Positions 8,236 to 16,512 of a stretch of DNA of 34,882 nucleotides are shown here, in pieces. The notes beneath the pieces were generated by a model. It was not told where the DNA came from and did no database searches. It worked only from the letters and a program-made list of their open reading frames with translations. The DNA is taken from UHGV virus genome UHGV-0371280; one strand, 5' to 3'. Source of the stretch: a virus. Each line of letters opens with the position of its first letter. Within the stretch, counting starts at the first letter, position 1. Made by a program: the position numbers and the translations under genes.

Positions 8236-11916
<3,681 letters not shown>

Positions 11917-11942
<26 letters not shown>

Positions 11943-12462
11943 TCAGCAACCCCGGTATCAGTTCATCCAGCGCGGCTGCTTTGTTCATGGCTTTGATGAT
12001 ATCCCGTTTCAGGAAATCAACATGTCGGTTTTCCAGTTCCGGAAAACGCCGCTGCACCGACAGGGGGATCCCGTCGAGAATACTGGCAATTTCACCTGCG
12101 ATCCGCGACAGCACGAAAGTACAGAATGCGGTTTCCACCACTTCAGCGGAGTCTCTGGCATTTTTCAGCTCCTGTGCGTCGGCCTGCGCACGCGTAAGTC
12201 GATGGCGTTCGTACTCAATAGTCCCTGGCTGGAGATCTGTCTCGCTGGCCTGCCGCAGTTCTTCAACTTCCCGGCGCAGCTTTTCGTTCTCAATTTCAGC
12301 ATCCCTTTCGGCATACCATCTTATAACGGCGGCAGAGTCATAAAGCACCTCATTACCCTTGCCACCGCCTCGCAGAACGGGCATTCCCTGTTCCTGCCAG
12401 TTCTGAATGGTACGGATACTCGCACCGAAAATGTCAGCCAGCTGCTTTTTGTTGACTTCCAT
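11917..12462 (-). CDS. Nu1: Terminase small subunit Nu1
   Basis: 181 aa MEVNKKQLADIFGASIRTIQNWQEQGMPVLRGGGKGNEVLYDSAAVIRWYAERDAEIENEKLRREVEELRQ... matches lambda gpNu1. Confidence 0.96.
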
Positions 12463-12680
12463 TGTTCATTCCACGGACAAAAACAGAGAAAGGAAACGAC
12501 AGAGGCCAAAAAGCCCGTTTTCAGCACCTGTCGTTTCCTTTCTTTTCACGGGGTGTTTTAAATAAAAACATTAGGTTACGGCGAAGAAGAACGGAAACGC
12601 CTTAAACCGGAAAATTGTCATAAATAGCGAAAACCCGCGCGCCTTCCGCCCCGTGAGAGCTCAGGTCATCAGAAGGACCC
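12463..12680 (-). other. cos region: cosB closely matching lambda, plus a variant cosN 12-mer at 12640-12651
   Basis: Reverse-complement of 12463-12639 aligns almost base-for-base with the first ~190 nt of lambda (CGCGGGTTTTCGCTATTTATGA.AATTTTCCGGTTTAAGGCGTTTCCGTTCTTCTTCG...GGAAACGACAGGTGCTGAAA...). The position of the cohesive-end 12-mer reads GGGCGGAAGGCG instead of GGGCGGCGACCT. Confidence 0.8.
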
Positions 12681-12799
12681 ACATTAAAGGCAGAATATTC
12701 ACTCTGATATTACGCATTGTTTTGCTTTTGTAGATTCGCAATTTACGGTAAAAATACTTTTGCTATTTCTTCGTACCATAAATGCACAGGAGTATCTTC

Positions 12800-13120
12800 A
12801 TGTCCATAAAGGTATTCAGAAGTGACCTTCAGACTGAGAGTGAATCAGACTATCGTAATTGGCTTGGCGATAATCCAGACGGATATGTTGTCAATGCATT
12901 GAAGCGAACCAGAGGTAAAGGTAATAAATCTGACGAATGCTTTACCAGAATCCATAGAGCATCTTGCAAAACGATTAATCCCTTGAAACGCAAGATCGAT
13001 AAAACAGGATTCACAACTGGAGATTATCAAAAAATATGCTCAACCAACTTCCTCAATGTTGAAAATGAAGCAAAGAAAATGACAGGTCTGACAAGCATCA
13101 TCAAATGTCGATGCATCTAA
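12800..13120 (+). CDS. Hypothetical protein (AT-rich moron on the strand opposite the late genes)
   Basis: 106 aa from ATG 12800 (MSIKVFRSDLQTESESDYRNWLGDNPDGYVVNALKRTRGKGNK...), preceded by CAGGAGTA 6 nt upstream. Noticeably AT-rich compared with the flanking phage genes. No family recognised. Confidence 0.5.
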   Translation: MSIKVFRSDLQTESESDYRNWLGDNPDGYVVNALKRTRGKGNKSDECFTRIHRASCKTINPLKRKIDKTGFTTGDYQKICSTNFLNVENEAKKMTGLTSIIKCRCI

Positions 13121-13337
13121 AGCGTCATGTAATTAACATGTTCACAACACTCTCCGGGTGACCGCTAATGCTGTTGTCAGCCAAAAACTCTACGTTTCGA
13201 TTATGCCAATTTTGCACCGCCCGATGCCGATAAATGCGAAAATCCGGCGACTATGTAGCGTAATCAAATCAACGAGATACCACTTTCATGAAATAATTAT
13301 CATCTGTCAGTTCAATATCAATGTTGAGAGAGAATAA

Positions 13338-13490
13338 ATGAGAGGAATGCCAAGAGGAAGTCGAGGACAGAGGGCTGTCCAATCAACTGCAAGAAGAGCA
13401 AGACGATCAAATGCCAGCCATTCTGACCAATTAGGATGCCTGGCACTAATCATCGTTGGCCTGATATTTATCTATTTCATGGCTAATTAG
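13338..13490 (+). CDS. Possible small tail-anchored membrane peptide (50 aa)
   Basis: ATG 13338 to TAG 13488-13490: MRGMPRGSRGQRAVQSTARRARRSNASHSDQLGCLALIIVGLIFIYFMAN. Arg-rich N-terminus and one C-terminal hydrophobic helix. Purine-rich stretch upstream. Below the ORF-track size cutoff; coding status unproven. Confidence 0.25.
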   Translation: MRGMPRGSRGQRAVQSTARRARRSNASHSDQLGCLALIIVGLIFIYFMAN

Positions 13491-13500
13491 CAAAGATTGC

Positions 13501-13944
13501 TCATCTTACACACTGCGTGCGAATGTATTGCTGCAAGCCTCGGATCATTTTATCACTGGTTTCAATCCGCTTTCTAAGGGTGAAATAATCCCGTTGAGCG
13601 GTGTCAGTAAGTCTGGGGCTGGTGCCATCATCCACGCCGGAGGCGGCGGTGATTTTATGCATGTCTGGACAGACAGCTTTGACGCGCAGCCACTTACGCC
13701 CAGCAGAAACATCAGCACGAAGACTTTCGATAGTCGCGTTAGCATCAGCAAGCTCCTTTGTGTATCTGGCGTCGAGTTCTGCTACATCACGTTGACGCTT
13801 CTGCATATCAGCGATAGTGGATGCGGCTTTGTCGCGCTGCTCTTTGTAGGCGATGGCGTTATCACGGTAATGATTAACAGCCCATAACAGGCAGACGATG
13901 ATGCAGATAATCAGAGCGGAGATAATCGCGGTTACTCTGCTCAT
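13501..13944 (-). CDS. Rz: Spanin inner-membrane subunit Rz (i-spanin), divergent from lambda Rz
   Basis: From ATG 13944: [39 protein letters not shown]... with N-terminal TM and coiled-coil body. ATGA overlap with the lysozyme stop. C-terminal two-thirds differ from lambda Rz. Confidence 0.85.
13545..13745 (-). CDS. Rz1: Spanin outer-membrane lipoprotein Rz1 (o-spanin), embedded in Rz in the +1 frame
   Basis: From ATG 13745: [56 protein letters not shown]...; lipobox VSGC and proline-rich mature part, wholly inside Rz. Confidence 0.7.
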
Positions 13945-14018
13945 TGCTGCCCCCACAAACAGACTTCACGCTCAATCTCACGACGAGTCATCAGGCCTTT
14001 CCATTGCTTACCGCCAGC
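13828..14018. repeat. Left arm of an imperfect inverted repeat (R 3' end plus Rz 5' end); partner at 14379-14569
   Basis: The first 84 nt of the two Rz genes compared directly show about 5 mismatches, and the final 25 lysozyme codons differ at about 4-5 positions. The arms are in inverted orientation around a ~360 bp spacer (R codons ~21-140). Confidence 0.75.
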
Positions 14019-14375
14019 GTATATCCAGCGACGTAGCTGGTCACATGCGCCTTTGATATCGCCCTGGTTTATTTTGCGAAGAAGCGTCGATGTTCTGAAA
14101 TTGCCAGCACCCACGTTGTAAACGAATGAGTAAAGAGCGCCGCGCGTTGTTTCCGGTATATCGACTTTGATGTACGGGTTAATTTGTCTGGCGACCGTGG
14201 CAAGGTCTTTATTCAAGAGTGTTTTGCATTCTGCTTTGGTATACGTTTTACCGAGCATGATGTCTTTTCCTGTATGCCCGTGACATACAGTCCATACACC
14301 AACAATATCTTTGTATGGTATGTAGCTGACACCTTCCAGACCATCGTTACCACTTGGGCCAGTGATTAACACTGA
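13941..14375 (-). pseudogene. R: Endolysin R (T4-lysozyme fold, phage-21 SAR-endolysin type), 5'-truncated and lacking the N-terminal SAR segment
   Basis: ...[144 protein letters not shown] matches phage 21 R from about residue 22 to the end. Upstream of about 14376 the minus-strand frame is only the antisense of the opposing lysozyme remnant; no ATG or SD. Confidence 0.85.
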
Positions 14376-14378
14376 TGC

Positions 14379-14456
14379 GCTGGCGGTAAGCAATGGAAAG
14401 GTCTCATGACTCGTCGTGAGATTGAGCGTGAAATCTGTTTGTGGGGTCAGCAATGA
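14379..14456 (+). pseudogene. Lysozyme R 3' remnant (last 25 codons plus stop) of a second prophage
   Basis: Plus-strand frame reads [25 protein letters not shown], homologous to the C-terminus of the minus-strand lysozyme, ending in TGA overlapping the Rz ATG. A stop codon lies immediately upstream at 14373-14375. Confidence 0.8.
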
Positions 14457-14569
14457 ACAGAGTAACCGCGATTATCTCCGCTCTGGTTATCTGCATCGTC
14501 GTCTGCCTGTCATGGGGTGTTAATCATTACCGTGATAACGCCATCGCCTACAAAGAACAGCGCGACAAA
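14379..14569. repeat. Right arm of the same inverted repeat (lysozyme 3' remnant plus Rz 5' end)
   Basis: See the left arm at 13828-14018; same evidence. Confidence 0.75.
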
Positions 14570-14917
14570 AATGCCAGAGAACTGAAGCTGGCGAACGCGG
14601 CAATTACTGACATGCAGATGCGTCAGCGTGATGTTGCTGCGCTCGATGCAAAATACACGAAGGAGTTAGCTGATGCGAAAGCTGAAAATGATGTTCTGCG
14701 TGATGATGTTGCCGCTGGTCGTCGTCGGTTGCACATCAAAGCAGTCTGTCAGTCAGTGCGTGAAGCCACCACCGCCTCCGGCGTGGATAATGCAGCCTCC
14801 CCCCGACTGGCAGACACCGCTGAACGGGATTATTTCACCCTCCGGGAACGACTGGTAATGATGCAGGCCCAACTTGAAGGTGCTCAGCAATACATAACCG
14901 AGCAGTGTTTAAAGTAA
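14453..14917 (+). CDS. Rz: Spanin inner-membrane subunit Rz (lambda-like)
   Basis: From ATG 14453: [80 protein letters not shown]..., very close to lambda Rz. Confidence 0.9.
14673..14858 (+). CDS. Rz1: Spanin outer-membrane lipoprotein Rz1 (lambda-like), embedded in Rz
   Basis: [61 protein letters not shown]; lipobox VVGC; AGGAG 7 nt upstream of ATG 14673. Confidence 0.85.
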
Positions 14918-15054
14918 AATCTTAACTACAATATGATTCATTTTGATGATTGTTTCATAAGGAACAGTGAAGTAAGATCTAAGAGGAGTTAAATTTTATA
15001 CAGTATAATCATAATATTGCAGCAAGGTGGTTATAATTGAAAGAATATTTAGAT

Positions 15055-16512
15055 ATGAATACATCTCATGTAAGAGTTGTTACTCATATGTGTGGGTTCC
15101 TGGTTTGGCTCTATAGTCTTTCAATGTTGCCACCAATGGTTGTAGCATTGTTTTATAAAGAAAAAAGCCTGTTCGTTTTCTTTATAACTTTCGTTATATT
15201 TTTTTGCATTGGTGGCGGAGCGTGGTATACAACTAAGAAATCTGGCATTCAATTACGTACCCGTGATGGGTTTATTATAATTGTAATGTTTTGGATTTTG
15301 TTTTCTGTTATTAGTGCATTCCCTTTATGGATTGACTCAGAACTTAATTTAACGTTCATTGATGCTCTGTTTGAAGGGGTTTCTGGAATAACAACAACAG
15401 GAGCAACTGTAATTGATGATGTTAGTTCATTACCTCGGGCATATTTGTACTATCGGTCACAGTTAAATTTTATAGGTGGTTTAGGAGTTATTGTTCTGGC
15501 GGTTGCTGTATTGCCATTATTGGGTATTGGTGGTGCAAAGCTTTATCAGTCAGAAATGCCGGGGCCATTTAAGGATGACAAACTCACTCCCCGCCTGGCC
15601 GATACGTCACGGACACTGTGGATAACTTATTCTTTATTAGGTATTGCTTGTATTGTCTGTTATAGACTTGCAGGAATGCCTTTGTTTGATGCTATTTGTC
15701 ACGGGATTTCCACAGTTTCGCTTGGTGGTTTCTCAACTCATAGCGAGAGTATCGGATATTTTAATAACTATTTGGTTGAGCTGGTGGCTGGTTCTTTTTC
15801 CCTGCTATCGGCTTTCAACTTCACTCTTTGGTATATTGTTATTAGCAGGAAAACGATAAAACCTTTAATCAGAGATATTGAACTTCGTTTCTTTCTGTTA
15901 ATAGCCTTAGGGGTGATCATTGTTACCTCTTTCCAGGTCTGGCATATAGGTATGTATGACTTGCATGGAAGTTTTATTCATTCGTTTTTTCTTGCCAGCT
16001 CCATGCTCACTGATAATGGTTTAGCTACGCAGGATTATGCAAGTTGGCCCACGCACACGATAGTGTTTTTGCTGTTGTCAAGTTTCTTTGGGGGATGTAT
16101 AGGTTCAACTTGTGGTGGAATTAAGTCACTTCGATTTCTTATACTTTTCAAACAAAGCAAACACGAGATAAATCAGCTTTCTCATCCCAGAGCGTTGTTG
16201 AGTGTAAATGTAGGAGGGAAGATAGTTACAGATCGTGTAATGAGGTCTGTATGGAGTTTCTTTTTTCTTTATACTCTCTTCACGGTGTTTTTTATACTGG
16301 TGTTAAATGGTATGGGATATGATTTTCTTACATCATTTGCAACAGTGGCTGCATGTATTAATAATATGGGATTAGGTTTTGGGGCTACTGCATCGTCATT
16401 CGGAGTGCTTAATGACATTGCAAAATGTTTAATGTGCATAGCTATGATTCTTGGTCGCCTTGAAATTTATCCTGTTATTATATTGTTTTCAGGTTTTTTT
16501 TGGCGCTCCTAA
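15055..16512 (+). CDS. trkG: Trk-system potassium uptake membrane protein TrkG (prophage cargo)
   Basis: From ATG 15055: MNTSHVRVVTHMCGFLVWLYSLSMLPPMVVALFYKEKSLFVFFITFVIFFCIGGGAWYTTKKSGIQLRTRDGF..., 485 aa, polytopic. Recognised as Rac-prophage TrkG (TrkH paralogue) from memory. Strongly AT-rich codon usage. Confidence 0.93.
   Translation: MNTSHVRVVTHMCGFLVWLYSLSMLPPMVVALFYKEKSLFVFFITFVIFFCIGGGAWYTTKKSGIQLRTRDGFIIIVMFWILFSVISAFPLWIDSELNLTFIDALFEGVSGITTTGATVIDDVSSLPRAYLYYRSQLNFIGGLGVIVLAVAVLPLLGIGGAKLYQSEMPGPFKDDKLTPRLADTSRTLWITYSLLGIACIVCYRLAGMPLFDAICHGISTVSLGGFSTHSESIGYFNNYLVELVAGSFSLLSAFNFTLWYIVISRKTIKPLIRDIELRFFLLIALGVIIVTSFQVWHIGMYDLHGSFIHSFFLASSMLTDNGLATQDYASWPTHTIVFLLLSSFFGGCIGSTCGGIKSLRFLILFKQSKHEINQLSHPRALLSVNVGGKIVTDRVMRSVWSFFFLYTLFTVFFILVLNGMGYDFLTSFATVAACINNMGLGFGATASSFGVLNDIAKCLMCIAMILGRLEIYPVIILFSGFFWRS

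What the first reader, a model, noticed from the sequence alone, without database searches (positions are those of the whole stretch)
12681..13500. AT-rich opposite-strand moron between the spanin genes and cos
In lambda this slot holds bor. Here a 106 aa lysine-rich, Cys-containing protein of no recognisable family is encoded on the strand opposite the late operon, with its own SD and markedly lower GC than its neighbours, suggesting independent acquisition and independent expression.
Basis: partly seen in the sequence, partly recalled or inferred. Interest (0 to 1): 0.42.

Follow-up and report, generated by a model that had tools for sequence, protein, structure and literature searches.

The report
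Phage moron encoding solo restriction-sensor domain
A small, AT-rich gene inserted backwards between a prophage's lysis genes and its DNA-packaging site is real and conserved, and it encodes a stand-alone copy of an undescribed zinc-type domain that other bacteria build into anti-phage restriction enzymes, so it probably acts in phage-host conflict rather than as a Bor-like surface protein.

Summary
Window 12800-13120 (+) encodes a 106-aa basic protein (pI 9.4, 12 Lys, 5 Cys) with an AGGAG Shine-Dalgarno site. It lies in a 0.38-0.41 GC island (about 12686-13500) between cos and Rz/Rz1, opposite to the late operon.

It is a true moron. It occurs in only 54 of 5426 complete E. coli genomes. Sibling prophages with the same Nu1/cos and Rz carry ylcI+iss(bor) or a DUF4406 gene in this slot. 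In 65 of 67 IMG/VR loci its relatives (49-100% identity) sit in the same lysis-to-packaging gap, always on the opposite strand, next to at least four kinds of small terminase. dN/dS is 0.10-0.26.

No curated library (Pfam, PHROGs, NCBIfam, PADLOC, PDB) matches it, and a confident AlphaFold model (pLDDT 88) has no Foldseek match.

An exhaustive search found an uncurated superfamily with invariant W, G, H, C, K and C. Some members are fused to McrA-type HNH nucleases or to a PD-T4-6-like defence kinase. The sister group (hhalign 99.9%) is the C-terminal half of the third gene of an enterobacterial McrB-McrC-X operon.

Best reading, at low confidence: an effector-less recognition domain that antagonises type IV restriction. 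Autonomous defence is nearly as likely. Expression is untested.

The parts
11917..12462 (-). Nu1/nohD small terminase, the first gene of the packaging module. It forms the left flank of the slot.
   Evidence: ORF. Annotated nohD DNA-packaging protein WP_000453611.1 in identical prophages.
12484..12685 (.). cos region. It contains a perfect inverted repeat GAAAGGAAACGACAG/CTGTCGTTTCCTTTC (12488-12545, lambda-type Nu1 R-sites by my own knowledge), a cosN-like segment around 12633-12650, and a cosQ-like GGGTCCT (reverse complement) around 12676-12682.
   Evidence: Window 12560-12654 is 90-97% identical to the cos of lambda-like phages, annotated 'cos site' in phage DE3. Sequence read. The element names rest on knowledge of lambda cos and were not tested here.
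12686..12799 (+). Upstream region of the moron gene (GC 0.37). It holds a weak candidate promoter, TTTACG (12742-12747), 16 nt, TGc-TATTTC (12761-12769), and the AGGAG Shine-Dalgarno site at 12789-12793.
   Evidence: Sequence. The consensus scan found no + strand promoter at its threshold. My own scoring reached only 7/12 here, against 10/12 in homologues.
12800..13120 (+). Moron gene of 106 aa (WP_000025002.1), a stand-alone copy of an undescribed alpha/beta domain whose His and Cys residues look like zinc ligands. Residues invariant across the superfamily are W21, G28, H52, C56, K78 and C105. F6, Y18, V30, N32, T72, Y76, C80 and C103 are nearly invariant.
13121..13500 (.). A 380-bp 3' spacer that is inherited with the gene. 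No annotated feature, no Rfam match and no intrinsic terminator were found.
   Evidence: Found only in the same 54 E. coli genomes as the gene, with no feature annotated under it. Scans.
13338..13490 (+). A doubtful 50-aa ORF with an Arg-rich N-terminus and a hydrophobic tail. It is probably not a gene.
   Evidence: The ORF appears. The exact sequence is absent from a collection of 15 billion predicted proteins, although the DNA occurs on hundreds of contigs. It has no family hit and PGAP does not annotate it.
13501..13944 (-). Rz (i-spanin), with Rz1 (o-spanin lipoprotein, 13545-13751) embedded in another frame. It is the last gene of the late lysis cassette and forms the right flank of the slot.
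   Evidence: PF03245, E 6e-39. Annotated 'lysis protein'. The Rz1 ORF with a lipobox (LGVSGC) is.

Best explanation
The gene is a horizontally mobile phage moron. It is transcribed from its own promoter against the late operon, so it is made in the lysogen or right after DNA entry and is silenced by convergent late transcription.

Its product is a 12-kDa basic protein consisting of one copy of an undescribed alpha/beta domain, probably held together by a His-Cys3 zinc site (H52, C56, C103, C105). In cellular proteins the same domain is the non-catalytic module of anti-phage effectors. It is the N-terminal domain of McrA-type HNH type IV restriction enzymes, the C-terminal domain of a PD-T4-6-like Ser/Thr kinase, and, as the closest relative, the C-terminal half of the third subunit of an enterobacterial McrB-McrC-X system.

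The phage copy keeps every invariant residue but lacks the roughly 100-aa N-terminal domain of that third subunit and carries no effector. I propose that it binds the same ligand as the cellular versions, most likely a modified or foreign DNA feature or possibly the McrBC machinery itself, without triggering cleavage. It would thereby shield phage or lysogen DNA from this class of type IV restriction, acting as a competitive or dominant-negative antagonist.

Shown here: the gene is real, mobile, fixed in its slot and under purifying selection. It is homologous to the defence-protein domains and lacks effector and docking domains.

Inferred: zinc binding, the ligand, expression timing and the direction of action (anti-restriction rather than defence).
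For: - Real and selected: homologues of the same length at 57-68% identity and dN/dS of 0.10-0.26.
- Moron behaviour: low GC, presence in 54 of 5426 E. coli genomes, and alternative cargo in sibling prophages.
- Fixed slot: 65 of 67 viral loci have packaging and/or lysis markers on the opposite strand, and the gene starts 46-51 bp from terS or just across cos.
- Own promoter in homologues: TTGCCA-16-TATATT/TATAAT with a TGn element.
- Domain confidently folded: pLDDT 87.7, pTM 0.80, all five models above 84.
- Fusion partners: the C-terminal halves of P0034, P0035, P0037, P0074, P0097 and P0098 match the McrA-type 'mREase_IV' profile at E 1e-20 to 1e-25, P0069 carries HNH_2, and the P0084 kinase matches PD-T4-6 at E 1e-49. 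L027 is a further HNH fusion, recognised by eye from its motif only.
- Sister group: the phage family aligns end to end with residues ~96-205 of the X protein (hhalign 99.9%, E 7e-32).
- The X gene is always the third gene after McrB-McrC, at four different chromosomal sites in Enterobacterales.
- No trace of the X N-terminal domain was found in 85 phage loci or the window.
- No acidic residue is invariant, so a metal-dependent catalytic centre is unlikely.
- General principle that modification-dependent restriction enzymes pair a sensing domain with a separate nuclease domain: abstract of PMC6765204.
- The E. coli prophages carrying the cassette encode two DNA methyltransferases, which would make their DNA a type IV target.
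Against: - There is no expression, binding or phenotype data.
- The window's own promoter is weak.
- Known lambdoid anti-restriction genes (ral, lar) are early genes, not late-region morons (my own knowledge).
- The three-gene McrBC-X system is almost absent from E. coli. Only 2 of 5426 genomes have a distant McrC relative, and in the one examined the X domain is deleted. An antagonist would therefore have little to antagonise in this host.
- 49 of 85 superfamily representatives are stand-alone. The three distant ones whose neighbourhood was examined sit among ordinary chromosomal genes without a conserved partner, so solo copies appear to have an autonomous role.
- Membrane-anchored effector-less forms (P0026, P0046, P0058, P0068) fit a blocking or defence role better.
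- The ligand is unknown, and the kinase fusion shows that the domain is not tied to nucleases.
Confidence: 0.3

Rival explanations
1. Autonomous prophage-encoded defence or superinfection exclusion. The lysogen makes the solo domain, which binds an incoming phage's DNA (for example a hypermodified base) or another phage component and blocks its use. It needs no nuclease, or it works in trans with a host nuclease.
For: - The slot and orientation are those of lysogen-expressed morons such as bor/iss.
- Every recognisable fusion partner is an anti-phage effector.
- Effector-less solo forms dominate the superfamily (49 of 85), and membrane-tethered forms with one to three copies exist.
- A protein of this kind would be useful in E. 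coli whether or not McrBC-X is present.
- Prophage hotspots commonly carry defence genes (abstracts of PMC9122126, PMC10884400 and PMC8585504).
Against: - No hit to any PADLOC defence model.
- I know of no precedent for protection by a 12-kDa reader domain alone.
- The sister family works as part of a three-protein McrBC machine, and the phage copy lacks the docking domain.
Confidence: 0.25
2. Lysogenic-conversion or regulatory DNA-binding protein unrelated to restriction. A small basic zinc protein that alters host or prophage gene expression, or some other aspect of host fitness, as Bor/Iss alters serum resistance.
For: - It occupies the same slot as iss/bor and ylcI.
- The protein is basic (pI 9.45).
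- Distant solo members lie beside housekeeping genes.
Against: - There is no signal peptide or lipobox, and no HTH or other known regulator fold.
- The recurrent links to McrBC, McrA-type HNH and the PD-T4-6 kinase point to conflict systems.
Confidence: 0.15
3. The domain is itself a minimal enzyme, for example a degenerate PD-(D/E)xK-like nuclease or a Cys/His hydrolase, and the phage copy acts catalytically.
For: - The predicted secondary-structure order alpha-beta-beta-beta-alpha-beta is the core order of the PD-(D/E)xK fold.
- H52 and K78 are invariant and lie on strands.
Against: - No acidic residue is invariant.
- All Foldseek matches are insignificant (best E 0.22, TM 0.41).
- The His/Cys pattern HxxxC...CxC or CxxC is typical of a structural zinc site.
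- The domain is repeatedly fused to genuine nucleases, which argues for a recognition role.
Confidence: 0.05
4. A non-functional passenger, meaning a decaying remnant or spurious ORF in AT-rich filler DNA.
For: The window lacks a good promoter and a terminator, and all E. coli copies are nearly identical and so give no information on selection.
Against: - Length, start codon and 36 invariant residues are kept across 18 clusters at 57-68% identity.
- dN/dS is 0.10-0.26.
- Slot, orientation and promoter are conserved across genera.
Confidence: 0.03

Closest known systems
Third gene ('X', about 205 aa, unnamed and without Pfam family) of a McrB(DUF8426-AAA_5-McrB_lid)-McrC-X operon in Enterobacterales (P0024, P0122-P0134)
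   Same: The whole 106-aa phage protein aligns with the C-terminal half of X (hhalign 99.9%, E 7e-32, 37% identity). Shared features include the 'LKSSEGK' insert, HxxxC, FTGGxYxKxC and the C-terminal Cys pair. The host clade is the same.
   Different: The phage protein lacks the conserved roughly 100-aa N-terminal domain of X. It is not next to McrBC. It lies in a phage late region on the opposite strand.
McrA-type HNH type IV (modification-dependent) restriction endonucleases (EcoKMcrA; PADLOC mREase_IV PDLC03656)
   Same: More distant members of the superfamily (33-39% identity) carry the domain where EcoKMcrA carries its N-terminal specificity domain NEco, followed by a McrA-like HNH domain (NEco in the abstract of PMC7145662).
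   Different: The window protein has no HNH domain. The domain is not NEco: Foldseek against the PDB library (entries to April 2026) returned no significant match of any kind, and I understand from the literature, not from a check here, that EcoKMcrA structures are deposited.
Lambda Bor / Iss lipoprotein and YlcI, the usual occupants of this slot
   Same: The position between Rz and cos is the same, as are the opposite strand and the moron behaviour. Sibling prophages with 96%-identical Nu1/cos carry ylcI+iss here.
   Different: There is no sequence or fold relationship, no signal peptide and no lipobox. The protein is cytoplasmic, basic and Cys/His-rich.
PD-T4-6 Ser/Thr-kinase defence system
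   Same: One superfamily member (P0084) has a PD-T4-6-like kinase (E 1e-49) with this domain at its C-terminus, the position expected for a sensor.
   Different: The window protein has no kinase. This is a single fusion example, and the role of the domain in it is unknown.

Membership tests
Phage moron (extra gene unit inserted between conserved genes of related phages) | Present in some closely related phages and absent from others at the same position | tested here: met
   The cassette is in 54 of 5426 E. coli genomes. Siblings with the same Nu1/cos and Rz carry ylcI+iss or DUF4406 instead. Homology breaks at 12654 and at about 13567.
Phage moron | Base composition different from the flanking genes | tested here: met
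   GC is 0.38-0.41 against 0.51-0.54 in the flanks. Homologues are also below their locus GC in 5 of 7 cases.
Phage moron | Own promoter allowing expression from the repressed prophage | tested here: inconclusive
   The window has no + strand site at the scan threshold, and the best by-eye candidate is weak. Homologues have 10/12 consensus promoters with an extended -10 element. No transcription data were available.
Phage moron | Own transcription terminator | tested here: not met
   No + strand intrinsic terminator was found in 13121-13500. This is a frequent but not obligatory feature.
Lambda Bor/Iss lipoprotein | Homology to Bor (Pfam Lambda_Bor) plus a signal peptide and lipobox Cys | tested here: not met
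   No Pfam hit at E<=1. The N-terminus MSIKVFRSDLQTESE is hydrophilic and has no lipobox.
McrBC-associated X protein family (P0024-like) | C-terminal domain homologous over its full length | tested here: met
   hhalign 99.9%, E 7e-32, 110 aligned columns. phmmer E 4.9e-13, 41% identity.
McrBC-associated X protein family (P0024-like) | Conserved roughly 100-aa N-terminal domain (MIYKDFY...SYLLAAMKYL) | tested here: not met
   tblastn of 14 N-terminal domains against the window and 85 phage loci gave nothing below E 0.5.
McrBC-associated X protein family (P0024-like) | Encoded immediately downstream of McrB-McrC | tested here: not met
   The window neighbours are cos/Nu1 and Rz. X genes follow McrC at all 4 sites examined.
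McrA-like type IV restriction endonuclease | HNH (beta-beta-alpha-Me) nuclease domain | tested here: not met
   The 106-aa protein has no HNH hit in Pfam or PADLOC. Only distant fused relatives have one.
Structural zinc-binding domain | Four conserved Cys/His ligands with knuckle-like spacing | tested here: met
   H52, C56 and C105 are invariant and C103 is at least 90% conserved across 51 sequences down to about 30% identity. The spacing is HxxxC ... CxC or CxxC. Three McrBC-X members have HxC in place of the first Cys of the pair.
Structural zinc-binding domain | Actual metal binding and ligand geometry | not testable with these tools
ICP-MS or a crystal structure is needed.
Modified-DNA reader domain (as SRA, EVE/PUA or NEco in type IV enzymes) | Binds DNA carrying a modified base | not testable with these tools
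   This is inferred only from the domain's position in McrA-like fusions and its association with McrBC. There is no fold similarity to any solved reader.
Known anti-phage defence systems (PADLOC 2.0) | Match to a defence-protein model | tested here: not met
   0 families at E<=1.

The most novel reading that the evidence does not exclude
The domain is a previously undescribed fold of foreign- or modified-DNA sensor used by several classes of defence proteins: a three-gene McrBC-X system, McrA-like HNH enzymes and a PD-T4-6-like kinase. Temperate enterobacterial phages would have captured it as a stand-alone 106-aa protein, placed at the DNA end next to cos/terS. There it would act as a decoy that switches off this branch of type IV restriction. 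That would make it a new family of anti-restriction proteins, derived from the host's own sensor.
Probability: 0.25. Interest if true: 0.7.

Novelty: new variant of a known kind. Interest (0 to 1): 0.5.

Why it matters
Morons in the lysis-to-packaging gap of lambdoid prophages are a known source of lysogenic-conversion and conflict genes, but most remain 'hypothetical'. This one gives a handle on three things at once.

1. It defines a protein domain with no Pfam model, no solved structure and no structural neighbour, which recurs in type IV restriction enzymes and a defence kinase across many bacterial phyla and an Asgard archaeon.
2. It points to an undescribed three-gene variant of McrBC in Enterobacterales.
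3. It offers a cheap, testable candidate (a 321-bp gene) for either a new anti-type-IV-restriction protein or a new single-gene exclusion factor.

Either result would add a new piece to the phage-host conflict picture and identify what this sensor domain recognises. If neither holds, it remains an ordinary, well-behaved moron of unknown function.

Tried and rejected
- Curated profile libraries (Pfam, PHROGs, PADLOC, NCBIfam) gave nothing for the 106-aa protein or the 50-aa ORF. Scanning all 51 superfamily members against Pfam gave only weak DUF6233 hits in 3 members, over the HxxxC motif.
- A profile search of PDB sequences returned only chance hits such as mGluR1.
- Foldseek with two models against PDB and BFVD gave nothing significant. 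The papain-like peptidases low in the first list are noise, with RMSD around 10 A.
- Rfam on 12300-13700 returned only sub-threshold miRNA-like hits, caused by the cosB inverted repeat.
- The Bor/Iss analogue reading was rejected because there is no lipobox and no homology.
- The 'degraded fragment of a known gene' reading was rejected because the protein matches the full length of intact homologues.
- The 50-aa ORF at 13338-13490 was rejected as a gene for now, because it is never called in 15 billion predicted proteins.
- A conserved operon partner for distant solo homologues was not found.
- The 287-aa HNH plus MazG neighbours seen in some loci are absent from most loci, so they are not partners.
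- A split gene for the X N-terminal domain in phages was not found.
- The search for related loci with the broad alignment A2 failed because it had no conserved stretch. A1 was used instead.
- The literature has no paper mentioning WP_000025002. A text search of the McrBC census paper PMC11090510 for terms such as 'third gene' and 'zinc' found no passage describing this domain.
Full report
**1. The observation**

The late operon of a lambda-like prophage runs on the minus strand of the window. It comprises large terminase (10017-11942), Nu1/nohD (11917-12462), then cos, then Rz (13501-13944) with embedded Rz1 (13545-13751), and an endolysin.

Window 12560-12654 is 90-97% identical to the cos of lambda-like phages and is annotated 'cos site' in phage DE3. 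By my own knowledge of lambda, the perfect inverted repeat at 12488-12545 corresponds to the Nu1 R-sites, and a cosQ-like GGGTCCT lies at about 12676-12682.

Between cos and Rz, on the plus strand, lies one convincing ORF at 12800-13120, 106 aa long. AGGAG sits 7 nt before its ATG. All homologues begin at that ATG and not at the in-frame ATG at 12782. The protein has 12 Lys, 8 Arg and 5 Cys, and a pI of 9.45.

GC content is 0.38 in the ORF and 0.40 over 12655-13500, compared with 0.51-0.54 in the flanking genes.

**2. It is a real gene and a real moron**

RefSeq annotates the gene as hypothetical protein WP_000025002.1 in identical prophages of E. coli O177:H21, ETEC H10407 and other strains. 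A word-indexed search of 5.8 billion proteins found 17 clusters at 57-68% identity, nearly all exactly 106 aa, in Leclercia, Pseudescherichia and metagenomes. Their alignment has 36 invariant positions, including H52, C56, C80, C103 and C105. Where dS is not saturated, dN/dS is 0.10-0.26.

The gene and the 380 bp that follow it occur together in the same 54 of 5426 complete E. coli genomes, at 98% identity or more. Prophages with 96%-identical Nu1/cos and a related Rz carry ylcI plus iss (the bor homologue) in this slot, also on the opposite strand, or a DUF4406 gene. Homology to these siblings ends at 12654 and resumes inside Rz. Within E. coli, the cassette with its lysis genes is joined either to a lambda-type Nu1/gpA head module or to a DUF1441/ClpP-capsid-fusion module.

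**3. The slot is conserved far beyond E. coli**

The 59-65% identical homologues sit between the lysis cassette and the packaging genes, on the opposite strand. This holds in prophages with Terminase_2/Terminase_6N, DUF2280/Terminase_6C or DUF1441/GpA terminases and in Klebsiella phage ST846-OXA48phi9.2.

IMG/VR holds 67 loci with relatives at 49-100% identity. A marker search found a packaging gene to the left and/or a lysis gene to the right in 65 of them, and both in 42. Every marker lay on the opposite strand. The gene starts 46-51 bp from the terS start, about 95 bp from a 287-aa HNH gene, or 335-369 bp from Nu1/DUF1441 with cos in between. The distance to the lysis genes varies from 134 bp to more than 4 kb. 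The gene is therefore anchored to the packaging-side boundary.

A second allele of 108 aa, 49% identical, occupies the same slot next to a 99%-identical Nu1 in about 33 further E. coli genomes, where it is mostly unannotated.

**4. Expression**

The consensus scan found no plus-strand promoter or terminator in the window's island. The best candidate by eye is weak: TTTACG, 16 nt, TGcTATTTC.

The homologues do have 10/12 matches, TTGCCA-16-TATATT/TATAGT, or TATAAT preceded by TGn, lying 26-29 nt before the ATG and overlapping the divergent terS start codon. Because the gene opposes the late operon, it must use its own promoter. By analogy with lambda bor (established knowledge), it should be expressed in the lysogen and opposed by late transcription. 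This is inference, and no transcript data could be consulted.

**5. What the protein is**

Pfam, PHROGs, PADLOC and NCBIfam give nothing at E<=1. An exhaustive phmmer search of 1.84 billion cluster representatives gave 85 hits at E<=1e-3. Of these, 49 are stand-alone proteins of 85-135 aa, 7 are fragments and 29 are longer.

Across 51 members, down to about 30% identity, W21, G28, H52, C56, K78 and C105 are invariant. F6, Y18, V30, N32, T72, Y76, C80 and C103 are at least 90% conserved. No acidic residue is invariant. The pattern HxxxC ... CxC or CxxC looks like a structural zinc site.

AlphaFold2 with this alignment gives a confident small alpha/beta domain (pLDDT 87.7, pTM 0.80, all five models above 84). 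Foldseek finds no significant neighbour in the PDB (best E 0.22, TM 0.41) or in BFVD (best E 0.46). A profile search of PDB sequences also finds nothing. No Pfam model covers any of the 51 members, apart from weak DUF6233 hits over the HxxxC motif in three.

A scan of one genome per species found the close family only in Enterobacterales (Citrobacter, Cedecea, Brenneria). Distant members turned up in Chloroflexi, Planctomycetes, Bacteroidetes, Actinobacteria, Acidobacteria, Gemmatimonadetes, Binatia, an alphaproteobacterium and a Helarchaeota MAG.

**6. Company the domain keeps**

- McrA-type HNH fusions. Six longer members (P0034, P0035, P0037, P0074, P0097, P0098) have the domain at the N-terminus (twice in P0035), followed by an HNH domain. 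That domain matches the 277-position McrA-type 'Type IV methyl-directed restriction enzyme' profile over positions about 175-258, with E 1e-20 to 1e-25.
- Other nuclease fusions. P0051 is a weaker case of the same kind. P0069 has HNH_2. A planctomycete protein (L027) carries a further HNH motif, recognised by eye only. P0072 ends in a probable PD-(D/E)xK domain, supported only by weak hits to Hjc and YraN-like models.
- Kinase fusion. P0084 is a PD-T4-6-like Ser/Thr kinase (E 1e-49) with the domain at its C-terminus.
- Membrane-anchored forms. P0026, P0046, P0058 and P0068 have an N-terminal membrane anchor and one to three copies of the domain, with no effector.
- McrBC-X operon. This is the most telling case. 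The closest non-solo relative, P0024 (41% identity, E 5e-13), belongs to a family of about 205-aa proteins, P0122-P0134. Their gene is always the third gene directly after McrB (DUF8426-AAA_5-McrB_lid) and McrC. This holds at four different chromosomal places in Enterobacterales, one of them a defence island with HsdR, a helicase-PLD protein and AbiE.
- Profile comparison. The phage family aligns end to end with residues about 96-205 of this 'X' protein (probability 99.9%, E 7e-32).
- Missing docking domain. The conserved N-terminal domain of X is found nowhere in the window or in 85 phage loci.

**7. How it most likely works**

The domain is the non-catalytic module of several unrelated anti-phage effectors. 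In modification-dependent restriction enzymes that module is the sensing domain (abstract of PMC6765204). The phage protein keeps all invariant residues but has neither an effector nor a docking domain. Whatever it does, it most likely does by binding.

I favour, at about 0.3, an antagonist role. In this reading the protein competes for the ligand of the McrBC-X or HNH-fused enzymes, or poisons their assembly. That would protect the DNA of phages that themselves encode two DNA methyltransferases. In cos phages the gene lies at the end of the virion DNA that, by my knowledge of lambda, enters the cell first.

Several points count against this. Known lambdoid anti-restriction genes are early genes. 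The McrBC-X system is nearly absent from E. coli: only 2 of 5426 genomes have a distant McrC relative, and in the one examined the X domain is replaced by an HTH fragment. Most superfamily members are solo proteins, and the three distant ones whose context was examined lie among ordinary chromosomal genes.

Autonomous exclusion or defence by binding is nearly as likely, at about 0.25. A non-conflict lysogenic-conversion role (0.15), a minimal enzyme (0.05) and a dead passenger (0.03) follow. I hold the class-level statement at about 0.85: this is a genuine, mobile, selected moron that encodes a solo copy of a domain associated with type IV restriction and defence proteins.

**8. Novelty and verdict**

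The kind of element is well known: a moron in the bor slot. The protein family is uncurated and appears to be a new fold. Its link to an undescribed three-gene McrBC variant and to McrA-like enzymes was not found in the literature searched. I rate it a new variant of a known kind, with interest 0.5. It is a cheap and well-defined candidate for a new anti-restriction or exclusion protein, but there are no functional data.

Noticed in passing
window 13828-14569 (junction at about 14375-14378): The prophage endolysin gene (minus strand) is truncated at its 5' end. It abuts an inverted copy of the R-3'end/Rz-5'end (arms 13828-14022 and 14375-14569, 195 nt, 94% complementary). This is followed by a Rac-type rzpR-like Rz (14441-14917 +), trkG (15037-16512 +) and a second phage structural module. 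The junction is present in none of 5426 complete E. coli genomes. It is either a rearrangement between two prophages or an assembly chimera.
   Followed up: partly
L094 5001-5327 (IMG/VR), and E. coli genomes such as NZ_CP010121.1 3090030-3090630: A second, 49%-identical allele of the same family (108 aa, ending CHWCI) occupies the same slot next to a 99%-identical Nu1. It is found in about 33 complete E. coli genomes, where it is mostly unannotated.
   Followed up: partly
L103 2702-6627; L107, L109, L111 (same layout): A three-gene operon in Enterobacterales: McrB (DUF8426-AAA_5-McrB_lid, about 655 aa), McrC (about 443 aa) and an unnamed protein of about 205 aa. The C-terminal half of that third protein is the domain of the window's moron. 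The operon occurs at four different chromosomal sites, and it appears to be an undescribed McrBC variant.
   Followed up: partly
L112 6386-7033 (E. coli GDSC2227PM, NZ_CP135595.1): In this E. coli genome the third gene after HsdR-McrB-McrC keeps its N-terminal domain. After 'VVRFHSEDA' its sensor domain is replaced by an HTH/antitoxin-like fragment. The same genome also carries the moron cassette (hit H113). This is a single case, so no inference was drawn.
   Followed up: partly
L020 (NZ_CP174001.1, whole 43,337-bp record): An E. coli SZQ1 record deposited as a circular 'plasmid' is a complete lambdoid phage genome, running from integrase to tail fibres. It carries the moron cassette between Rz and a DUF1441-type terminase. 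It may be an excised or replicating phage.
   Followed up: no
window 13338-13490 (+): A 50-aa ORF with an Arg-rich N-terminus and a hydrophobic C-terminal tail lies in the 3' spacer of the cassette. It has a higher GC content (0.45) than the rest of the island. No gene caller in the 15-billion-protein collection ever calls it. A promoter-like site on the minus strand (13321-13293) points antisense towards the moron gene.
   Followed up: partly
window 12488-12545: A perfect 15-nt inverted repeat GAAAGGAAACGACAG / CTGTCGTTTCCTTTC lies between the Nu1 start and cosN. It causes spurious sub-threshold miRNA hits in Rfam. By knowledge of lambda, these are terminase (Nu1) R-sites of cosB.
   Followed up: no
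L004 2101-4272: In one Leclercia prophage the Mu-F-like head protein is 723 aa instead of 367 aa, with only faint PT-HINT and an Intein_splicing Pfam hit. This suggests an intein insertion in a head-morphogenesis gene.
   Followed up: no
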